NCBI GenBank assembly: GCA_019056785.1
Contig: DXJV01000033.1
Coordinates: forward strand, 1-42,579
Length of the DNA: 42,579 nucleotides
Direction of reading: 5' to 3'
Source: Candidatus Heimdallarchaeota archaeon
GTDB taxonomy: Archaea; Asgardarchaeota; Heimdallarchaeia; JABLTI01
In this document: positions 38,458-42,555 of the stretch, one piece after another
Numbering within the stretch: position 1 is the first letter of the stretch
Layout: every line of letters begins with the position of its first letter
Translations under genes and position numbers: made by a program
Notes under the pieces: model-generated
What the model saw: the letters and a program-made list of their open reading frames with translations, nothing else
What the model was told of the DNA's origin: nothing
The model's database searches: none

Positions 38458-40507
38458 TCTCCAAAGTAGGTTCCGACACGCAAACGCCATCTGGGGGATG
38501 GATAGGCTTGAGCGCCGATGAAGGCCGTGGCTAGCTGCGATAAGCGCGGGGTAGTTGCAGGCAAACGTCGATCCCGCGATTGCCGAATAGGAATTCCATG
38601 TATGGACCAATAAGCCATACAACTCCGTAAGGAGGGGGAACGCACCGGACGGAAACATCCAAGTAGGTGCAGGAAAAGAAATCACCTGAGATGCCCTGAC
38701 TGTAACGGCGAGTGAAAGGGGCATAGACCAAACTGAATCCTGGCGGGCGACCGTTAGGAGATGTGGTGTTGTGGTCTGTCACTAAATTCTGCGTATGATA
38801 GTCGAATATCCTGGAAAGTTTAGCCTTAGAAGGTGATAGCCCTGTAGGCGAAATCATACCCAGAAGGAGACAGTAACCAGAATAACGGGGGTTGGAAATC
38901 TCTCGTGAACTGGGGCACAACGAGCTCCAAGTCTAAATACGTCTCAAGACCGATAGCGCAATAGTAACGTGAGTGAAAGCTGAAAAGTAACCCGGAAGGG
39001 TGGTGAAAAGTGCCTGAAACCAGATGGTTATAGACGTTTGTGGTCCGAAAGCGTAGAGTCTGGACGAAGAGAAGGCTGGTGACGGCTGGATCGAGTTCAG
39101 AGGAGCGGGATCACAAGATCCGTCTAGAAACACGGGCCAGGGAGTTTGCCCTCGTGGCGAGCTTAAGGGTTTCAAAGACCCGAAGGCGGAGCGAAAGCGA
39201 CAAGTCCGCAGCTTGCAAGGGACGCCGTCTGAAAGGGCGGGAAGTCACGGGGGTAAGACCCGAAACCGGACGATCTATCCGTGGACAGGCTGAAGCCCGG
39301 GGAAACTCGGGTGGAGGGCCGAACAAGTGTTGACGTGCAATTCACGTTTGTTGATCTGCGGATAGGGGCAAAAGACCAATCTAGTCCGGTGATAGCTGGT
39401 TCCCAACGAAGTGGACATAGGCCAGCCTGATTTGAGGTGGCGCATTCGGTAGAGCAAGGATTCGTGGTCATGGGGAGTAAAATCCTCACCCATGAGTCAA
39501 ACTACGAACGGATGCGTACCATAGACGATCAGAGTCGGGCGTGCGTGCGTAAGGCACGTGGCCGAAAGGGGAATAACCCAGACCATGGTTAAGGACCCCA
39601 AGTCTCGATTAAGTGTTAAAATCGGAAGGGCGTCCTTGGACTAAGACAGTTAGGCGGTAGGCTCAGAAACAGCCACCCGCTAAGCAACACGTAACAGTGG
39701 ACTAACCGAGTCCTTGGGCCCCGAGAATGGACGGGGCTAAATCGAGCTCCGAGACCATGGGGCACACTGCAAGGTGTGATCCGGTAGTTGGGCGATCGGG
39801 TTGGGCGGAAGTAGGGCAGTGATGTCCTGTGGACCGACCCGATTTGCAGATCCTGGCGATAGTAACAGCAAAGAGAGGTGAGAATCCTCTCCGCCGAAAG
39901 GGCTAGGGTTTCACGGCAACGTTCGTCAGCCGTGAGTTAGTCGATCCTAAGGCCAGTCTTACCTGAGCTGGTCGAAAGGGAAACAGGTTTAAATTCCTGT
40001 ACTGCGTGGATACGCCAGAAGCGGCAACGCAAAGCTCATCTTCTGACGCGACTGGATAGGCTCTGTTAAGCCATCGCTTAATTTAACTGTATAACCCTCC
40101 GAAGTACTGTGACAGTGAGAAGGAGGCGAAAGCAGGAATAGGCTGCCAATAGTGGCGGCTAGAGCTGCTTCCACTCGCCCATGAAAAGGAAGATGAGAAG
40201 GATTCCACGTAATCGTACCGAGAACTGACACAGGTGTCCCTAGGTGAGAAGCCTAAGGCGTGTTCGGTCAAAGATGGTGAGGGAAATCGGCAAATTCGCC
40301 CTGTAACTTTGGGATAAAGGGTGCCTGTGGGCTTGAAAGGGCTCGCAGGTCGCAGTGACAAGAGGGGGGCAACTGTTCAATTCAAACATAGCAAACTGCA
40401 AGAGCGAAAGCTTGTGAACAGTTTGTGAATCCTGCTCAATGCTGGTAAGTCAAAGCCGGTTACAACCGGTCTAAGCTCCAGTCAATAGCGGGAGTAACTA
40501 TGACTCT

Positions 40508-41387
40508 TAGCTAAGAAGAAATCCTATCGGGAGTCGTTAAATCTGGCTATATGCGGGAACATCGCTGAAGAGCACTCCTAAGTAAGGAACAATGTGCTGT
40601 TCCAAAGCGACAATCCGCAGGAAATCGAACAGTTCCTCTCAAAACTCATTTCGGAAGAATAGAGGCCGAAGAACCTCAAAAAAAAACAGAAAGCAAATAT
40701 AAACGAACCATTAAACAAAGAGATGAAAAGAGCAATGTTGCGAAAAGCAAGAAACCAAAGCACAAAAAACACTTATCTCTGTGGACTGGTGGACGGCGAA
40801 GGATCTTTTAGCATAAGCATAAAACCACACAATACAACAAAGTTTGGTTGGGTAATAGACCCAACGTTTAGCTTAACACTCGAGGAAACAGCAGAACATG
40901 TGCTAAGAGAATTGCAGCAAGCGCTACGATGCGGAAGAATAATCACAAAACCAGGACAACCAAACTGTAAACTTTTCATAGAAGAAAGCAGAAGAAATCT
41001 AAAGGAAAAAGTAATACCCTTTTTTGAACGATACCCACTCGAAGTGAAACGAAAAAGCTTCGAACATTTCAAAAAAGTAATTGAACGATTAGAACAAAAG
41101 GAACATAGCAAAGCAGAGAGTTTTCTAAGACTGGCGGTGTATGCCTTCAGCCTGAAGGAAAACAAAGGAACAAGAAAATACACAATAGAAGACATCTTAC
41201 AAACAATGAAACACAAACCAGAAAACGCAGAAGAAATAGTGAAAAATGAGCAAGAAAAACTGATGAAAAGAAATGAGTAATGGAGAAGAATGTCGAGATC
41301 CCCAGAGACTATACGCCAGACACCAAACAGAAAGTGAGAAACTTCTGTGCGGTGAAGATATAGTCCGGCGATAAGAAAATATCGTTG
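40508..41387 (+). mobile_element. Group I self-splicing intron at 23S position L1923 (E. coli numbering), 880 nt
   Basis: The 5' exon ends GACTCT and pairs with IGS GGAGTC (40530-35), giving a U-G splice pair. P3 TCTGGC (40542-47)/GCCAGA (41315-20); P4 TGCGGG/TCCGCA; P7 GACTA (41307-11)/TAGTC (41361-65); P8 CACC/GGTG; P9 hairpin; terminal G at 41387. Removal restores TAACTATGACTCT-CTTAAGGTAGC. Confidence 0.96.
40723..41280 (+). CDS. Single-motif LAGLIDADG homing endonuclease, I-CeuI-like, in the intron P6 region
   Basis: YLCGLVDGEGSF. SISIKPHNTTKFGWVIDPTF and GRI...RRNLKEKVIPFFERY resemble the I-CeuI segments as I recall them (ISTKKLATSKFGLVVDPEF; RQSLEEKVIPFYEQY). Strongly A-rich coding strand. 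Confidence 0.93.
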   Translation: MKRAMLRKARNQSTKNTYLCGLVDGEGSFSISIKPHNTTKFGWVIDPTFSLTLEETAEHVLRELQQALRCGRIITKPGQPNCKLFIEESRRNLKEKVIPFFERYPLEVKRKSFEHFKKVIERLEQKEHSKAESFLRLAVYAFSLKENKGTRKYTIEDILQTMKHKPENAEEIVKNEQEKLMKRNE

Positions 41388-41930
41388 CTTAAGGTAGCCA
41401 AATGCCTTGTCAGATAAGTACTGACGTGCATGAACGGATCAATGACCTCCCTACTGTCCCCACCATCTACCGAGTGAAATCACTATCCAGCGAACAGTCT
41501 GGAACCAACCAGCGGGAAGAGAAGACCCCGTGGAGTTTTACTGCAGCCTGTGCCTGTTGTACGGGTCGCAATACATAGAGTAGTCGGGAGCGTTGAACCA
41601 AGTTCTCCGGGACTTGGGAATGCGACAATGAAACACCGACTATTGTTGCTTGTACGACTAACTTTCTGCGGAAAGGACAAGTATTGGTGGGCAGTTTAGC
41701 TGGGGCGGCTGCGCTTGAAAAAGTATCGAGCGTGTCCAAAGGTCAGCTCAGGAGGGACAGAAATCCTCCGTAGAGCATAAGAGCAAAAGCTGGCTTGACA
41801 GGGTTCTTACCCATAGGGAACCCTGGAACGAAAGTTGGGTCTAGCGATCTGTCGAGACTTCTCGTTGAGGTCCGGCAGCGGCAGAAAAATTACCCCGGGG
41901 GTAACAGAGTCGTCGCAGGCGAGAGCTCAC

Positions 41931-41998
41931 CCACTCTCCAGTTCTTTGTTACCGCTGATAAGAAACGATCTAGGCTCACGGAACTGGAGGAGGAGTAA
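41931..41998 (+). other. 68-nt archaeal bulge-helix-bulge intron in 23S helix 89 (after position 2477 equivalent)
   Basis: Central helix GCTC (41925-28)/GAGT (41993-96), 3-nt bulges ACC and AAA, intron stem CTCCAGTTC/GAACTGGAG. Cutting after the second nt of each bulge restores GAGAGCTCAC-ATCGAC. Confidence 0.88.
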
Positions 41999-42086
41999 AT
42001 CGACCCTGCGGCTTGCTACCTCGATGTCGGCTCTTCCTCTCCTGGCGCCGCACAAGACGCCTAGGGTAGGGTTGTTCGCCCATTAA

Positions 42087-42129
<43 letters not shown>

Positions 42130-42207
42130 ATTCTTTCTACTGGTTGTGCTGCGAATCTGAGGGTAGGGCCGGGTCGGTACGAGAGGACCCCCCCGTCGGC
42201 GCCTCTA

Positions 42208-42243
<36 letters not shown>

Positions 42244-42309
42244 CACGCGCCAAGCGATAATAGCTGAAAGCATCTAAGCTAGAAACGCGTCCTGAAACGA
42301 GATTCGCAT

Positions 42310-42438
42310 TCTGGGGATTATTTGGAGTTTGAGACCTGCTGCTCTTTAGCTGTTGAGCAGCGCTTTTAGATGTCAAGTGTATGTCTTTTTTGGTCTCCTC
42401 CTGCACGGGGCTGGTGACAGCAACGTGTCTTCCTCAGA
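42310..42438 (+). other. Large multibranched expansion segment ES39 (helix 98 region)
   Basis: Closing helix TCTGGGGA/TCCTCAGA. Internal helices GAGACC/GGTCTC, GCTGCTC/GAGCAGC, GCACG/CGTGT and GCTG-GTGA-CAGC. Confidence 0.85.
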
Positions 42439-42555
42439 CGACGGTTCCGATACAAGATCGGTTTGAAAGGCCTGCGGTGTACGCGTCGAGTCTTCGGGCG
42501 AGATGTTCAGCCGGCAGGTACTTACCACCGAAGCGTGTCAATTCCGAAATGGACT

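What the first reader, a model, noticed from the sequence alone, without database searches (positions are those of the whole stretch)
40488..41407. I-CeuI-like homing endonuclease whose target reads like eukaryotic 28S rDNA
Seen: the intron-less allele is GCGGGAGTAACTATGACTCT^CTTAAGGTAGCCAAATGCCT. Established (recalled): this 40-mer is the conserved eukaryotic 28S sequence containing the I-PpoI site (CTCTCTTAAGGTAGC), the Tetrahymena/Physarum L1925 intron site and the R2 retrotransposon site. I-CeuI, from a plastid L1923 intron, recognises the bacterial-type TAACTATAACGGTCCTAAGGTAGCGA. Inference: an L1923 family enzyme that crossed domains and may have re-specified to a eukaryote-type site. 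It would be a candidate new meganuclease for rDNA targeting and a model for specificity evolution.
Basis: partly seen in the sequence, partly recalled or inferred. Interest (0 to 1): 0.82.

Follow-up and report, generated by a model that had tools for sequence, protein, structure and literature searches.

The report
Homing intron in Asgard 23S rRNA
This is a self-splicing (group I) mobile intron with its own DNA-cutting enzyme gene, sitting in the 23S rRNA gene of a Heimdall-type Asgard archaeon; its target looks eukaryotic only because archaea and eukaryotes share this stretch of rRNA, and both this kind of intron and an enzyme that cuts this same sequence are already published.

Summary
An 880-nt insert (40508-41387) interrupts an rRNA gene exactly as described. 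The joined exons give the quoted 40-mer, which is letter-for-letter eukaryotic 28S.

The host gene, however, is an archaeal LSU rRNA (Rfam RF02540, 2474 bits) in a Heimdall-type Asgard genome. Three genomes of the same genus carry the uninterrupted site with the same sequence, so the eukaryote-like target is simply the host's own.

The insert is a group I intron at E. coli position 1923. P1, P3, P4, P5, P7, P8, P9 and the terminal G are supported by compensatory changes across nine homologous introns. A 185-aa single-motif LAGLIDADG_1 gene sits in the P6 loop. It is under purifying selection (dN/dS about 0.1) and models as a homodimer.

The closest solved structures are I-Vdi141I (30% identity), an archaeal enzyme already shown to cut this same I-PpoI-type site, and then I-CeuI (28%).

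Relatives at 35-45% identity occupy position 1923 in both archaeal and bacterial 23S genes. The family therefore does span two domains and two versions of the site.

Archaeal group I introns at LSU/1923 with LAGLIDADG genes were described by Nawrocki et al. (2018). This scan has also found the same kind on other DNA several times.

Verdict: a new member of a known kind, of modest interest.

The parts
38470..42544 (+). Host gene: archaeal large-subunit (23S) rRNA, the only LSU match in this 82.5%-complete genome
   Evidence: Rfam RF02540, 2474.5 bits, model positions 1-2987
40488..40507 (+). 5' exon flank (end of helix 69, up to E. coli U1923); left part of the presumed homing site
   Evidence: Sequence; aligned to intron-less congeners
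40508..41387 (+). Group I intron, 880 nt, inserted at L1923
   Evidence: Junctions; Rfam Intron_gpI partial hits on both sides of the ORF; helix covariation
40502..40535 (+). P1: exon GACUCU (40502-40507) pairs with the internal guide GGAGUC (40530-40535), with a U.G pair at the 5' splice site
   Evidence: 9/9 sequences paired at all 6 positions. The guide changes together with the exon in the bacterial homologue L012, and likewise in L146 and L147
40542..40547 (+). P3 5' strand (UCUGGC); pairs with 41315-41320 (GCCAGA)
   Evidence: 9/9 paired at all 6 positions; 4 positions show two pair types
40552..40619 (+). P4 (40552-40557 with 40614-40619) enclosing P5/P5a/P5b
   Evidence: Rfam alignment; covariation counts
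40620..40628 (+). P6 5' strand (GGAAAUCGA); pairs with 41293-41301 and encloses the endonuclease gene
   Evidence: By inspection of the sequences printed. Homologues keep the pairing with changed bases (L004, L009, L012). No formal count was made
40723..41280 (+). Homing endonuclease gene: 185 aa, single LAGLIDADG motif (LCGLVDGEGS, nt 40777-40806), catalytic Glu26
   Evidence: Pfam PF00961 4e-19; AF2 model pLDDT 92.9; Foldseek top hits I-Vdi141I and I-CeuI; D24/E26/G27 conserved in at least 90% of homologues; dN/dS 0.10-0.11
41293..41301 (+). P6 3' strand (UCGAGAUCC)
   Evidence: By inspection
41307..41365 (+). P7 (41307-41313 with 41359-41365), P3 3' strand (41315-41320), P8 (41321-41324 with 41351-41354)
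   Evidence: Rfam alignment; 9/9 paired, with compensatory U-A to C-G changes in P7 and several in P8
41367..41387 (+). P9 hairpin (41367-41373 with 41380-41386) and the terminal G (omega-G, 41387)
   Evidence: all nine homologous introns end in G
41388..41407 (+). 3' exon flank. It holds the TTAA centre of the pseudo-palindromic site; the top-strand cut is predicted after 41392 (CTTAA^GG) in the intron-less allele
   Evidence: Inferred from I-Vdi141I and I-PpoI, which cut this sequence with 4-nt 3' overhangs (PMC2602781)

Best explanation
A mobile group I intron, probably of the IB4 subtype that Nawrocki et al. describe at this site, sits after the position equivalent to E. coli U1923 in the single 23S rRNA gene of a Heimdall-type Asgard archaeon.

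Splicing (inferred). The RNA folds into the group I core. P1 forms between the last six exon bases and an internal guide sequence, and the intron ends in omega-G. The intron presumably removes itself from the pre-rRNA by the usual two guanosine-initiated transesterifications.

The protein. The P6 loop carries a 185-aa single-motif LAGLIDADG_1 protein. Like I-CreI, I-CeuI and I-Vdi141I, it should work as a homodimer.

Homing (inferred). The enzyme should recognise the roughly 22-bp pseudo-palindrome around TTAA in intron-less 23S rDNA (ATGACTCTCTTAAGGTAGCCAA). It should cut with 4-nt 3' overhangs about 5 bp downstream of the insertion point. Repair copied from an intron-bearing allele would then spread the intron. 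Insertion between positions -4 and -3 of the site destroys it, which protects the carrier.

The target. The site equals eukaryotic 28S because this part of helix 69 and its 3' flank is the same in archaea and eukaryotes, not because of any contact with eukaryotes.

Shown here: host gene, junctions, ribozyme helices with covariation, protein family and fold, purifying selection, patchy distribution, and intron-less alleles in congeners. Inferred: self-splicing, the exact cleavage position, and activity.
For: - Host: archaeal LSU rRNA. The nearest named homologue comes from a 'Candidatus Heimdallarchaeota archaeon', and its intron is nearly identical to that of same-genus genome G005.
- Junction: identical to uninterrupted genes of three same-genus genomes.
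- Group I structure: Rfam Intron_gpI hits flank the ORF (22.9 and 21.6 bits, E 0.002 and 0.005 on 941 nt). In nine homologous introns every position of P1, P3, P4, P7 and P8 pairs in 9/9, with many compensatory changes. The internal guide co-varies with the exon in bacterial hosts, which have no BHB splicing enzyme.
- No BHB: no bulge-helix-bulge forms at the junctions in a co-fold, whereas the H89 mini-insert in the same gene does give one.
- Protein: PF00961 at 69.8 bits. AF2 model pLDDT 92.9. Foldseek ranks I-Vdi141I first (30% identity, TM 0.86 by target), then I-CeuI and I-TnaI.
- Homodimer model: ipSAE 0.67 against a best control of 0.01. That mark was reached by 20 of 30 proteins solved as pairs of one chain and by 1 of 23 solved as single chains. 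The runs agree in at least 85% of contacts and the partner's pLDDT is at least 86. The interface lies on the LAGLIDADG helix, residues 17-26. Solved homodimers of this family exist, so the pass may reflect likeness to them.
- Selection: dN/dS 0.10-0.11 against same-genus copies. Two differences in an independent vent metagenome contig are both synonymous.
- Distribution: homologues in 9 of 251 genomes and 7 of 63 genera sampled from the phylum. Identity does not track host kinship (78% in a genome outside the host's class, 81% in the same genus). One copy has an internal stop.
- Target: it matches the I-Vdi141I crystallised site at 21 of 22 positions.
Against: - Neither splicing nor cleavage was observed. 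The RNA libraries I laid held no contig across the junction, so there is no expression evidence either way.
- Each Rfam group I hit is below the family's gathering score of 50 bits, which is expected when a gene splits the ribozyme.
- The IB4 subtype was not tested with subtype models.
- The exact cleavage position is extrapolated from enzymes that are only 28-30% identical.
- Purifying selection would also fit a maturase role.
Confidence: 0.88

Rival explanations
1. One reading: an I-CeuI-lineage enzyme that crossed domains and re-specified from the bacterial-type site to a eukaryote-type site, making it a new meganuclease for eukaryotic rDNA.
For: - The insertion point and intron type are the same as for I-CeuI.
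- Family members at 35-45% identity sit at L1923 in bacterial 23S genes with the I-CeuI-type site (L012, L147, L148) and in archaeal 23S genes with this site (L009, L011, L146).
- In the tree the two target types interleave.
- The two site versions differ at 5 of the central 22 positions.
- The 40-mer is exact in 28S.
Against: - The site is the host's own archaeal sequence, so no eukaryotic link is needed.
- I-CeuI is not the closest relative: 61 bits against 71 for I-Vdi141I, and 28% against 30% identity. The bacterial member P0026 is equally far from both.
- The direction of transfer is unresolved: the branch separating the target types has only 68/91 support.
- I-Vdi141I and I-PpoI already cut this site (PMC2602781).
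Confidence: 0.3
2. The protein is kept mainly as a maturase that helps the ribozyme fold, or is an inactive relic, and no longer drives homing.
For: - LAGLIDADG proteins in group I introns can double as maturases (established for I-AniI).
- Purifying selection does not tell the two roles apart.
- One homologue in the phylum has an internal stop (G124), as expected late in the homing cycle.
Against: - The catalytic Glu26 and the motif are intact and conserved in at least 90% of homologues.
- The intron is present in some congeners and absent from others, and near-identical introns occur in distant hosts. This points to recent mobility.
Confidence: 0.12
3. The insert is a classical archaeal bulge-helix-bulge intron cut out by the EndA splicing endonuclease, like the I-Vdi141I intron at L1927.
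For: - Archaeal rRNA introns are classically of this type.
- The same gene has a probable BHB mini-intron in helix 89.
- The closest solved enzyme comes from a BHB intron.
Against: - No BHB geometry forms at the junctions in a co-fold.
- A full group I core with covariation, a U.G pair at the 5' splice site and omega-G are present.
- Homologous introns occur in bacteria, which lack EndA.
Confidence: 0.02

Closest known systems
Archaeal IB4 group I introns at LSU/1923 (Nawrocki, Jones and Eddy 2018, NAR 46:7970, PMC6125680; e.g. IB4.9, IB4.11, IB4.13, IB4.18, IB4.20, IB4.28)
   Same: Same host gene, same insertion position and same intron class. About 700-1100 nt where they carry a gene, which is a LAGLIDADG gene splitting the ribozyme. 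They also co-occur with BHB introns in one rRNA gene.
   Different: The nine LSU/1923 introns in that table are assigned to Aig-, Thaum-, Micr-, Pace- and Aenigmarchaeota or left unassigned; none is assigned to Asgard. I did not compare sequences with those records, and I did not run subtype models.
I-Vdi141I (Vulcanisaeta distributa, PDB 3E54; Nomura et al. 2008, PMC2602781)
   Same: Archaeal single-motif LAGLIDADG homodimer encoded in a 23S rRNA intron. It is the best structural match (30% identity) and the best single-domain sequence match among solved structures (71 bits). Its experimentally defined site CTGACTCTCTTAAGGTAGCCAA equals the site here at 21 of 22 positions and equals the I-PpoI site.
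   Different: Its intron is 586 bp at L1927, at the centre of the site, and is not a group I intron. The host is a hyperthermophile assayed at 90 C. Only 30% identity, so the contacts need not be the same.
I-CeuI (Chlamydomonas chloroplast, PDB 2EX5)
   Same: Group I intron at L1923, single-motif homodimer, second-best structural match (28% identity). Its cut centre (CTAA) is homologous to the TTAA centre here.
   Different: It recognises the bacterial/plastid version TAACTATAACGGTCCTAAGGTAGCGA, which differs at 5 of the central 22 positions. It has a longer N-terminal extension (207 aa in the crystal). It is no closer in sequence than I-Vdi141I.
I-PpoI (Physarum nuclear 28S, His-Cys box)
   Same: Same DNA sequence as its target (CTCTCTTAAGGTAGC).
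   Different: Unrelated fold. Its group I intron is at L1925 in a eukaryotic nucleus.

Membership tests
Group I intron | P1 helix between the 5' exon end and an internal guide sequence, with a U.G pair at the splice site | tested here: met
   GACUCU/GGAGUC, 9/9 paired at 6 positions. The guide co-varies with the exon in bacterial and variant archaeal hosts.
Group I intron | Conserved core P3-P9, including the P3/P7 arrangement, supported by covariation | tested here: met
   P3, P4, P7 and P8 all pair in 9/9 with 2-3 pair types at many positions. P5, P5a and P9 are mostly paired.
Group I intron | Terminal guanosine (omega-G) at the 3' splice site | tested here: met
   G41387. All homologous introns end in G.
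Group I intron | Rfam RF00028 score at or above the gathering threshold (50 bits) | tested here: not met
   Two partial hits of 22.9 and 21.6 bits, separated by the ORF. The model cannot bridge a 560-nt insert. Nawrocki et al. also got no hits in archaea with RF00028 and needed subtype models.
Group I intron | GTP-dependent self-splicing | not testable with these tools
   Needs in vitro transcription and a splicing assay.
IB4 subtype | Best match to the GISSD IB4 covariance model | not tested
   Subtype models are not on hand. The assignment rests on the same site and layout as the published archaeal IB4 introns.
LAGLIDADG_1 homing endonuclease (PF00961) | Pfam score above the curated cut-off | tested here: met
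   69.8 bits against 23.1, profile positions 1-101 of 102.
LAGLIDADG_1 homing endonuclease (PF00961) | LAGLIDADG helix ending in a catalytic acidic residue | tested here: met
   LCGLVDGEGS. D24, E26 and G27 are conserved in at least 90% of 29 homologues.
LAGLIDADG_1 homing endonuclease (PF00961) | Alpha-beta-beta-alpha-beta-beta-alpha fold | tested here: met
   AF2 model pLDDT 92.9 with helix 12-26, strands 27-35, 43-54, 72-75 and 82-87. Over 100 PDB LAGLIDADG matches.
LAGLIDADG_1 homing endonuclease (PF00961) | Homodimer through the LAGLIDADG helices (single-motif enzymes) | tested here: met
   Model only. ipSAE 0.67 against a best control of 0.01. The mark was reached by 20 of 30 proteins solved as pairs of one chain and 1 of 23 solved as single chains. 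Runs agree in at least 85% of contacts; partner pLDDT at least 86. Contacts at residues 17-26. The pass may come from likeness to solved homodimers.
LAGLIDADG_1 homing endonuclease (PF00961) | Site-specific double-strand cleavage | not testable with these tools
   Needs purified protein and a substrate.
I-CeuI isoschizomer / orthologue | Same recognition sequence | tested here: not met
   The host site differs from the I-CeuI site at 5 of the central 22 positions.
I-CeuI isoschizomer / orthologue | Closest relationship to I-CeuI among characterised enzymes | tested here: not met
   I-Vdi141I scores higher by phmmer (71.1 against 61 bits) and by Foldseek.
I-Vdi141I / I-PpoI isoschizomer | Same recognition sequence at the natural homing site | tested here: met
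   21 of 22 positions of the crystallised site. The differences are only at -11/-12, where the window carries the bases of the eukaryotic 28S oligonucleotide. That the enzyme actually cuts there is untested.
Archaeal BHB intron | Two 3-nt bulges holding the splice sites, separated by a 4-bp helix | tested here: not met
   The co-fold of the two junctions gives no such motif. The H89 insert in the same gene does.

The most novel reading that the evidence does not exclude
The Heimdall enzyme and its relatives may be the missing link showing that I-CeuI and I-Vdi141I belong to one endonuclease lineage. I-CeuI is encoded in a group I intron at L1923 and cuts the bacterial/plastid site. I-Vdi141I is encoded in a BHB intron at L1927 and cuts the archaeal site. 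On this reading one lineage has tracked the same helix-69 cut site across bacteria, plastids and archaea, changing both its site version and its intron vehicle from ribozyme to BHB. That would be concrete support for the idea that archaeal BHB rRNA introns descend from group I introns. A by-product: the enzyme would probably cut eukaryotic 28S rDNA at moderate temperature.
Probability: 0.35. Interest if true: 0.5.

Novelty: new member of a known kind. Interest (0 to 1): 0.3.

Why it matters
This adds an Asgard (Heimdall-type) host to the published list of archaea with group I introns at LSU/1923. It also gives a natural series of related single-motif enzymes that sit at the same rRNA position but face two versions of the site, bacterial and archaeal/eukaryotic, differing at 5 of 22 positions. 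Such a series is a usable model for how homodimeric meganucleases shift specificity.

The enzyme would probably cut eukaryotic 28S rDNA. I-PpoI and I-Vdi141I already do that, so the practical gain is small. None of this changes how such elements are understood to work.

Tried and rejected
- Splicing evidence from RNA. I laid three metatranscriptome runs (X12-X14) on 40100-41800 at 97% likeness. Only short, universally conserved rRNA pieces from other organisms matched, and no contig reached either junction. This says nothing about splicing or expression.
- How many archaea hold the exact 40-mer. All five loci I classified match the eukaryotic LSU model, and four are full eukaryotic rDNA contaminant units. 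The scan confirmed the eukaryotic identity but gave no archaeal count.
- One Rfam call on seven loci failed internally and was repeated with fewer loci.
It was replaced by separate searches for the spliced site and for the protein.
- P0031, a 35%-identical homologue, turned out to lie among tRNA genes, not in rRNA. It was left out of the target-type comparison.
- I could not obtain the I-CeuI or I-Vdi141I sequences as objects for a joint tree or for a comparison of DNA-contact residues. Only scores and identities from PDB searches were available.
- BHB reading: considered and rejected.
- Literature: no paper in the held library describes group I introns in Asgard 23S genes. Wu et al. 2022 (PMC8813620) mention only a homing-endonuclease-like gene in a mobile element next to the 16S gene. 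This is not proof that none exists.
Full report
**What is there.** Rfam places an archaeal large-subunit rRNA gene at 38470-42544 on the + strand (RF02540, 2474.5 bits, full model). It is the only LSU match in this 2.87-Mb, 82.5%-complete genome. The gene is about 1.1 kb longer than the model. Most of the excess is an 880-nt insert at 40508-41387, between ...GTAACTATGACTCT and CTTAAGGTAGCCAAATGCC....

**The intron-less allele is real.** A search of 40 relatives for the joined site found it with no mismatch in three genomes of the same genus (G008, G009, G010). Six hundred bases of the window's joined exons align to those genes without a gap at the junction, at 88-92% identity. Another same-genus genome (G005) and one from another family (G036) carry the insert with the endonuclease gene. 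The element is thus present in some close relatives and absent from others.

**The host.** The nearest named homologue of the encoded protein (81% identity) is annotated in a 'Candidatus Heimdallarchaeota archaeon' assembly. Its intron is almost identical to that of same-genus genome G005. Other notes on this window point to Asgard features such as a very large ES39. I take the host to be a Heimdall-type Asgard archaeon from marine sediment or a hydrothermal vent.

**Why the target reads as eukaryotic.**
The 40-mer occurs exactly in a published 28S oligonucleotide used as an R2 target (PMC13000458).
- An exact-match scan of the prokaryote genome collection returned at least 120 contigs. All five that I classified match the eukaryotic LSU model, and four of them are full eukaryotic rDNA units, that is, contaminants.
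- The same sequence is nevertheless the native archaeal one. It is in the intron-less congeners.
- With one or two changes it is in other archaeal LSU genes that carry the homologous intron (L009, L011, L013, L146).
- Vulcanisaeta distributa has CTGACTCTCTTAAGGTAGCCAA (PMC2602781).
- Nomura et al. state that the archaeal and Physarum sites are identical apart from positions -12 and -11. At those two positions the window carries the bases of the eukaryotic 28S oligonucleotide.
- Nothing beyond shared ancestry of the rRNA is therefore needed to explain the likeness.

**The insert is a group I intron.** Rfam's Intron_gpI model matches on both sides of the ORF: 40552-40680 (P4-P6, 21.6 bits) and 41236-41385 (P7-P9, 22.9 bits). 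Each is below the 50-bit gathering score because the gene splits the ribozyme. I collected homologous introns from eight other loci through the protein's relatives and counted pairs on an alignment of the ribozyme parts.
- P1 (exon GACUCU with the guide GGAGUC, U.G at the splice site), P3, P4, P7 and P8 pair in 9 of 9 sequences at every position.
- Compensatory changes are seen in all of these helices.
- P5, P5a and P9 are mostly paired.
- All nine introns end in G.

The most telling case is P1. In the bacterial homologue L012 the exon is AACGGU and the guide is GCCGUU. In L146 the exon is GACCCU and the guide GGGGUC. In L147 the exon is GACGGU and the guide GCCGUC.

Homologous introns sit in bacterial 23S genes (L012, L147, L148), where no BHB splicing enzyme exists. 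A co-fold of the two junctions shows no bulge-helix-bulge, while the 68-nt insert in helix 89 of the same gene does fold that way. The gene lies in the loop of P6 (40620-40628 with 41293-41301); I read this pairing by eye from the sequences.

By E. coli numbering the insertion follows U1923. The bacterial homologue is split as TAACTATAACGGT|CCTAAGGTAGCGA, which is the I-CeuI recognition sequence used in cloning primers.

**The protein.** The ORF 40723-41280 encodes 185 aa with one LAGLIDADG motif (LCGLVDGEGS) and matches PF00961 at 69.8 bits.
- Sequence matches among solved structures: the highest totals belong to two-domain I-OnuI-type enzymes, because both of their halves match. The best single stretch is I-Vdi141I (71.1 bits over residues 12-161), ahead of I-CeuI (61 bits).
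- Fold: an AlphaFold2 model built on 29 homologues has pLDDT 92.9 and the expected fold. Foldseek ranks I-Vdi141I first (30% identity, TM 0.86 by target), I-CeuI second (28%) and I-TnaI third.
- Dimer: a two-copy model passes the tool's mark (ipSAE 0.67, best control 0.01). That mark was reached by 20 of 30 proteins solved as pairs of one chain and 1 of 23 solved as single chains. The runs agree in at least 85% of contacts and the partner's pLDDT is at least 86. The interface is on the LAGLIDADG helix. Because homodimers of this family are solved, the pass shows likeness and not proof.
- Catalytic residue: the acidic residue Glu26 is conserved in at least 90% of homologues.
- Selection: dN/dS against the same-genus copies is 0.10-0.11, and 0.05-0.13 among other pairs.
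- Independent sample: a hydrothermal-vent metagenome contig holds the whole stretch with two differences, both third-position and synonymous (read).

**Distribution and relatives.** In 251 genomes sampled across the phylum, 9 (7 of 63 genera) hold a homologue at E no greater than 1e-10. Identity does not follow host kinship: 78% in a genome outside the host's class against 81% in the same genus. One copy has an internal stop. This is the pattern expected of a homing element that invades, decays and is lost.

Every homologue whose context I could read down to 35% identity lies at L1923 of an LSU gene, apart from P0031, which lies among tRNA genes:
- archaeal for P0003, P0006, P0014, P0015, P0017, P0021 and P0023;
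- bacterial for P0018, P0024 and P0026.

In a maximum-likelihood tree the window's clade (12 rows, support 100/99) is archaeal wherever the context is known. Bacterial-target and archaeal-target groups meet at a poorly resolved base. The family has thus crossed between bacteria and archaea at least once. It faces two site versions that differ at positions -9, -6, -5, -2 and +9 of the central 22. The direction of transfer is unknown.

**Comparison with what is known.**
- Nawrocki, Jones and Eddy (2018) reported 39 archaeal group I introns. Nine are IB4 introns at LSU/1923, several of them 700-1100 nt long. Twenty-one of the 39 carry LAGLIDADG genes, and some share the host gene with BHB introns (PMC6125680). 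None of the nine was assigned to Asgard.
- Nomura et al. (2008) showed by cleavage profiling and crystallography that the archaeal LAGLIDADG enzyme I-Vdi141I recognises the same site as I-PpoI (PMC2602781).
- The window's element is therefore a further member of a described class. The idea of a LAGLIDADG enzyme for the I-PpoI/28S site is not new.
- This scan has met the same kind on other DNA several times, with the same conclusion.

**What remains of interest.** The two best structural matches, I-Vdi141I and I-CeuI, both cut at the homologous four bases (1925-1928). One rides in a BHB intron at L1927 with the archaeal site. The other rides in a group I intron at L1923 with the bacterial site. 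The present enzyme combines the I-CeuI vehicle and position with the I-Vdi141I site. It may therefore link the two into one lineage. I could not test this, because I could not bring the two reference sequences into a tree.

**Verdict.** Observation confirmed; interpretation partly supported; a new member of a known kind; interest 0.3.

Noticed in passing
window 41929-41997 (approx.): A ~69-nt insert at the tip of helix 89 (about E. coli 2477). It is shared by the same-genus locus L001 and replaced by a ~230-nt insert at the same place in L017 (another family). It is absent from the other archaeal and bacterial LSU genes I aligned. Co-folding the flanks gives a GCUC/GAGU helix with 3-nt bulges, like a BHB mini-intron.
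   Followed up: partly
window 42310-42438: A large extra segment near the 3' end of the LSU gene (ES39/H98 region). It is much longer than in L004, L007, L009 and L011 and is shared in variable form by L001.
   Followed up: no
L001, downstream of its L1923 intron (alignment): The same-genus Heimdall LSU gene has two further inserts that the window lacks. One is ~200 nt after GGGGU (about L2449, in the peptidyl-transferase ring). The other is 62 nt inside the sarcin-ricin loop (GGUAC|GAGAGGA, about L2658). Intron content of this gene differs between congeners.
   Followed up: no
L013:478-782 and ORF 700-1452: In this archaeal LSU fragment a second group I intron (Rfam Intron_gpI, 117 bits) overlaps a 250-aa gene with a weak LAGLIDADG_3 Pfam hit, about 800 nt upstream of the L1923 intron.
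   Followed up: no
L026, L030, L041, L063 and over 100 other contigs of the prokaryote genome collection: The exact 40-mer pulled out at least 120 contigs, and those listed are all from records titled as bacteria. All five I classified match the eukaryotic LSU rRNA model. Four are full eukaryotic rDNA units (18S/5.8S/28S or 5.8S/28S), that is, eukaryotic contamination in bacterial assemblies; the fifth (L027) holds only short fragments.
   Followed up: partly
G124:C60:603-1079: A 50%-identical homologue of the endonuclease gene in another Asgard family has an internal TAA stop. It is probably a decaying copy.
   Followed up: no
L149:834-1367: A 35%-identical single-motif LAGLIDADG gene lies among tRNA genes, not in rRNA. 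Its called 3' end runs into a tRNA gene, so the annotated C-terminus is probably spurious.
   Followed up: no
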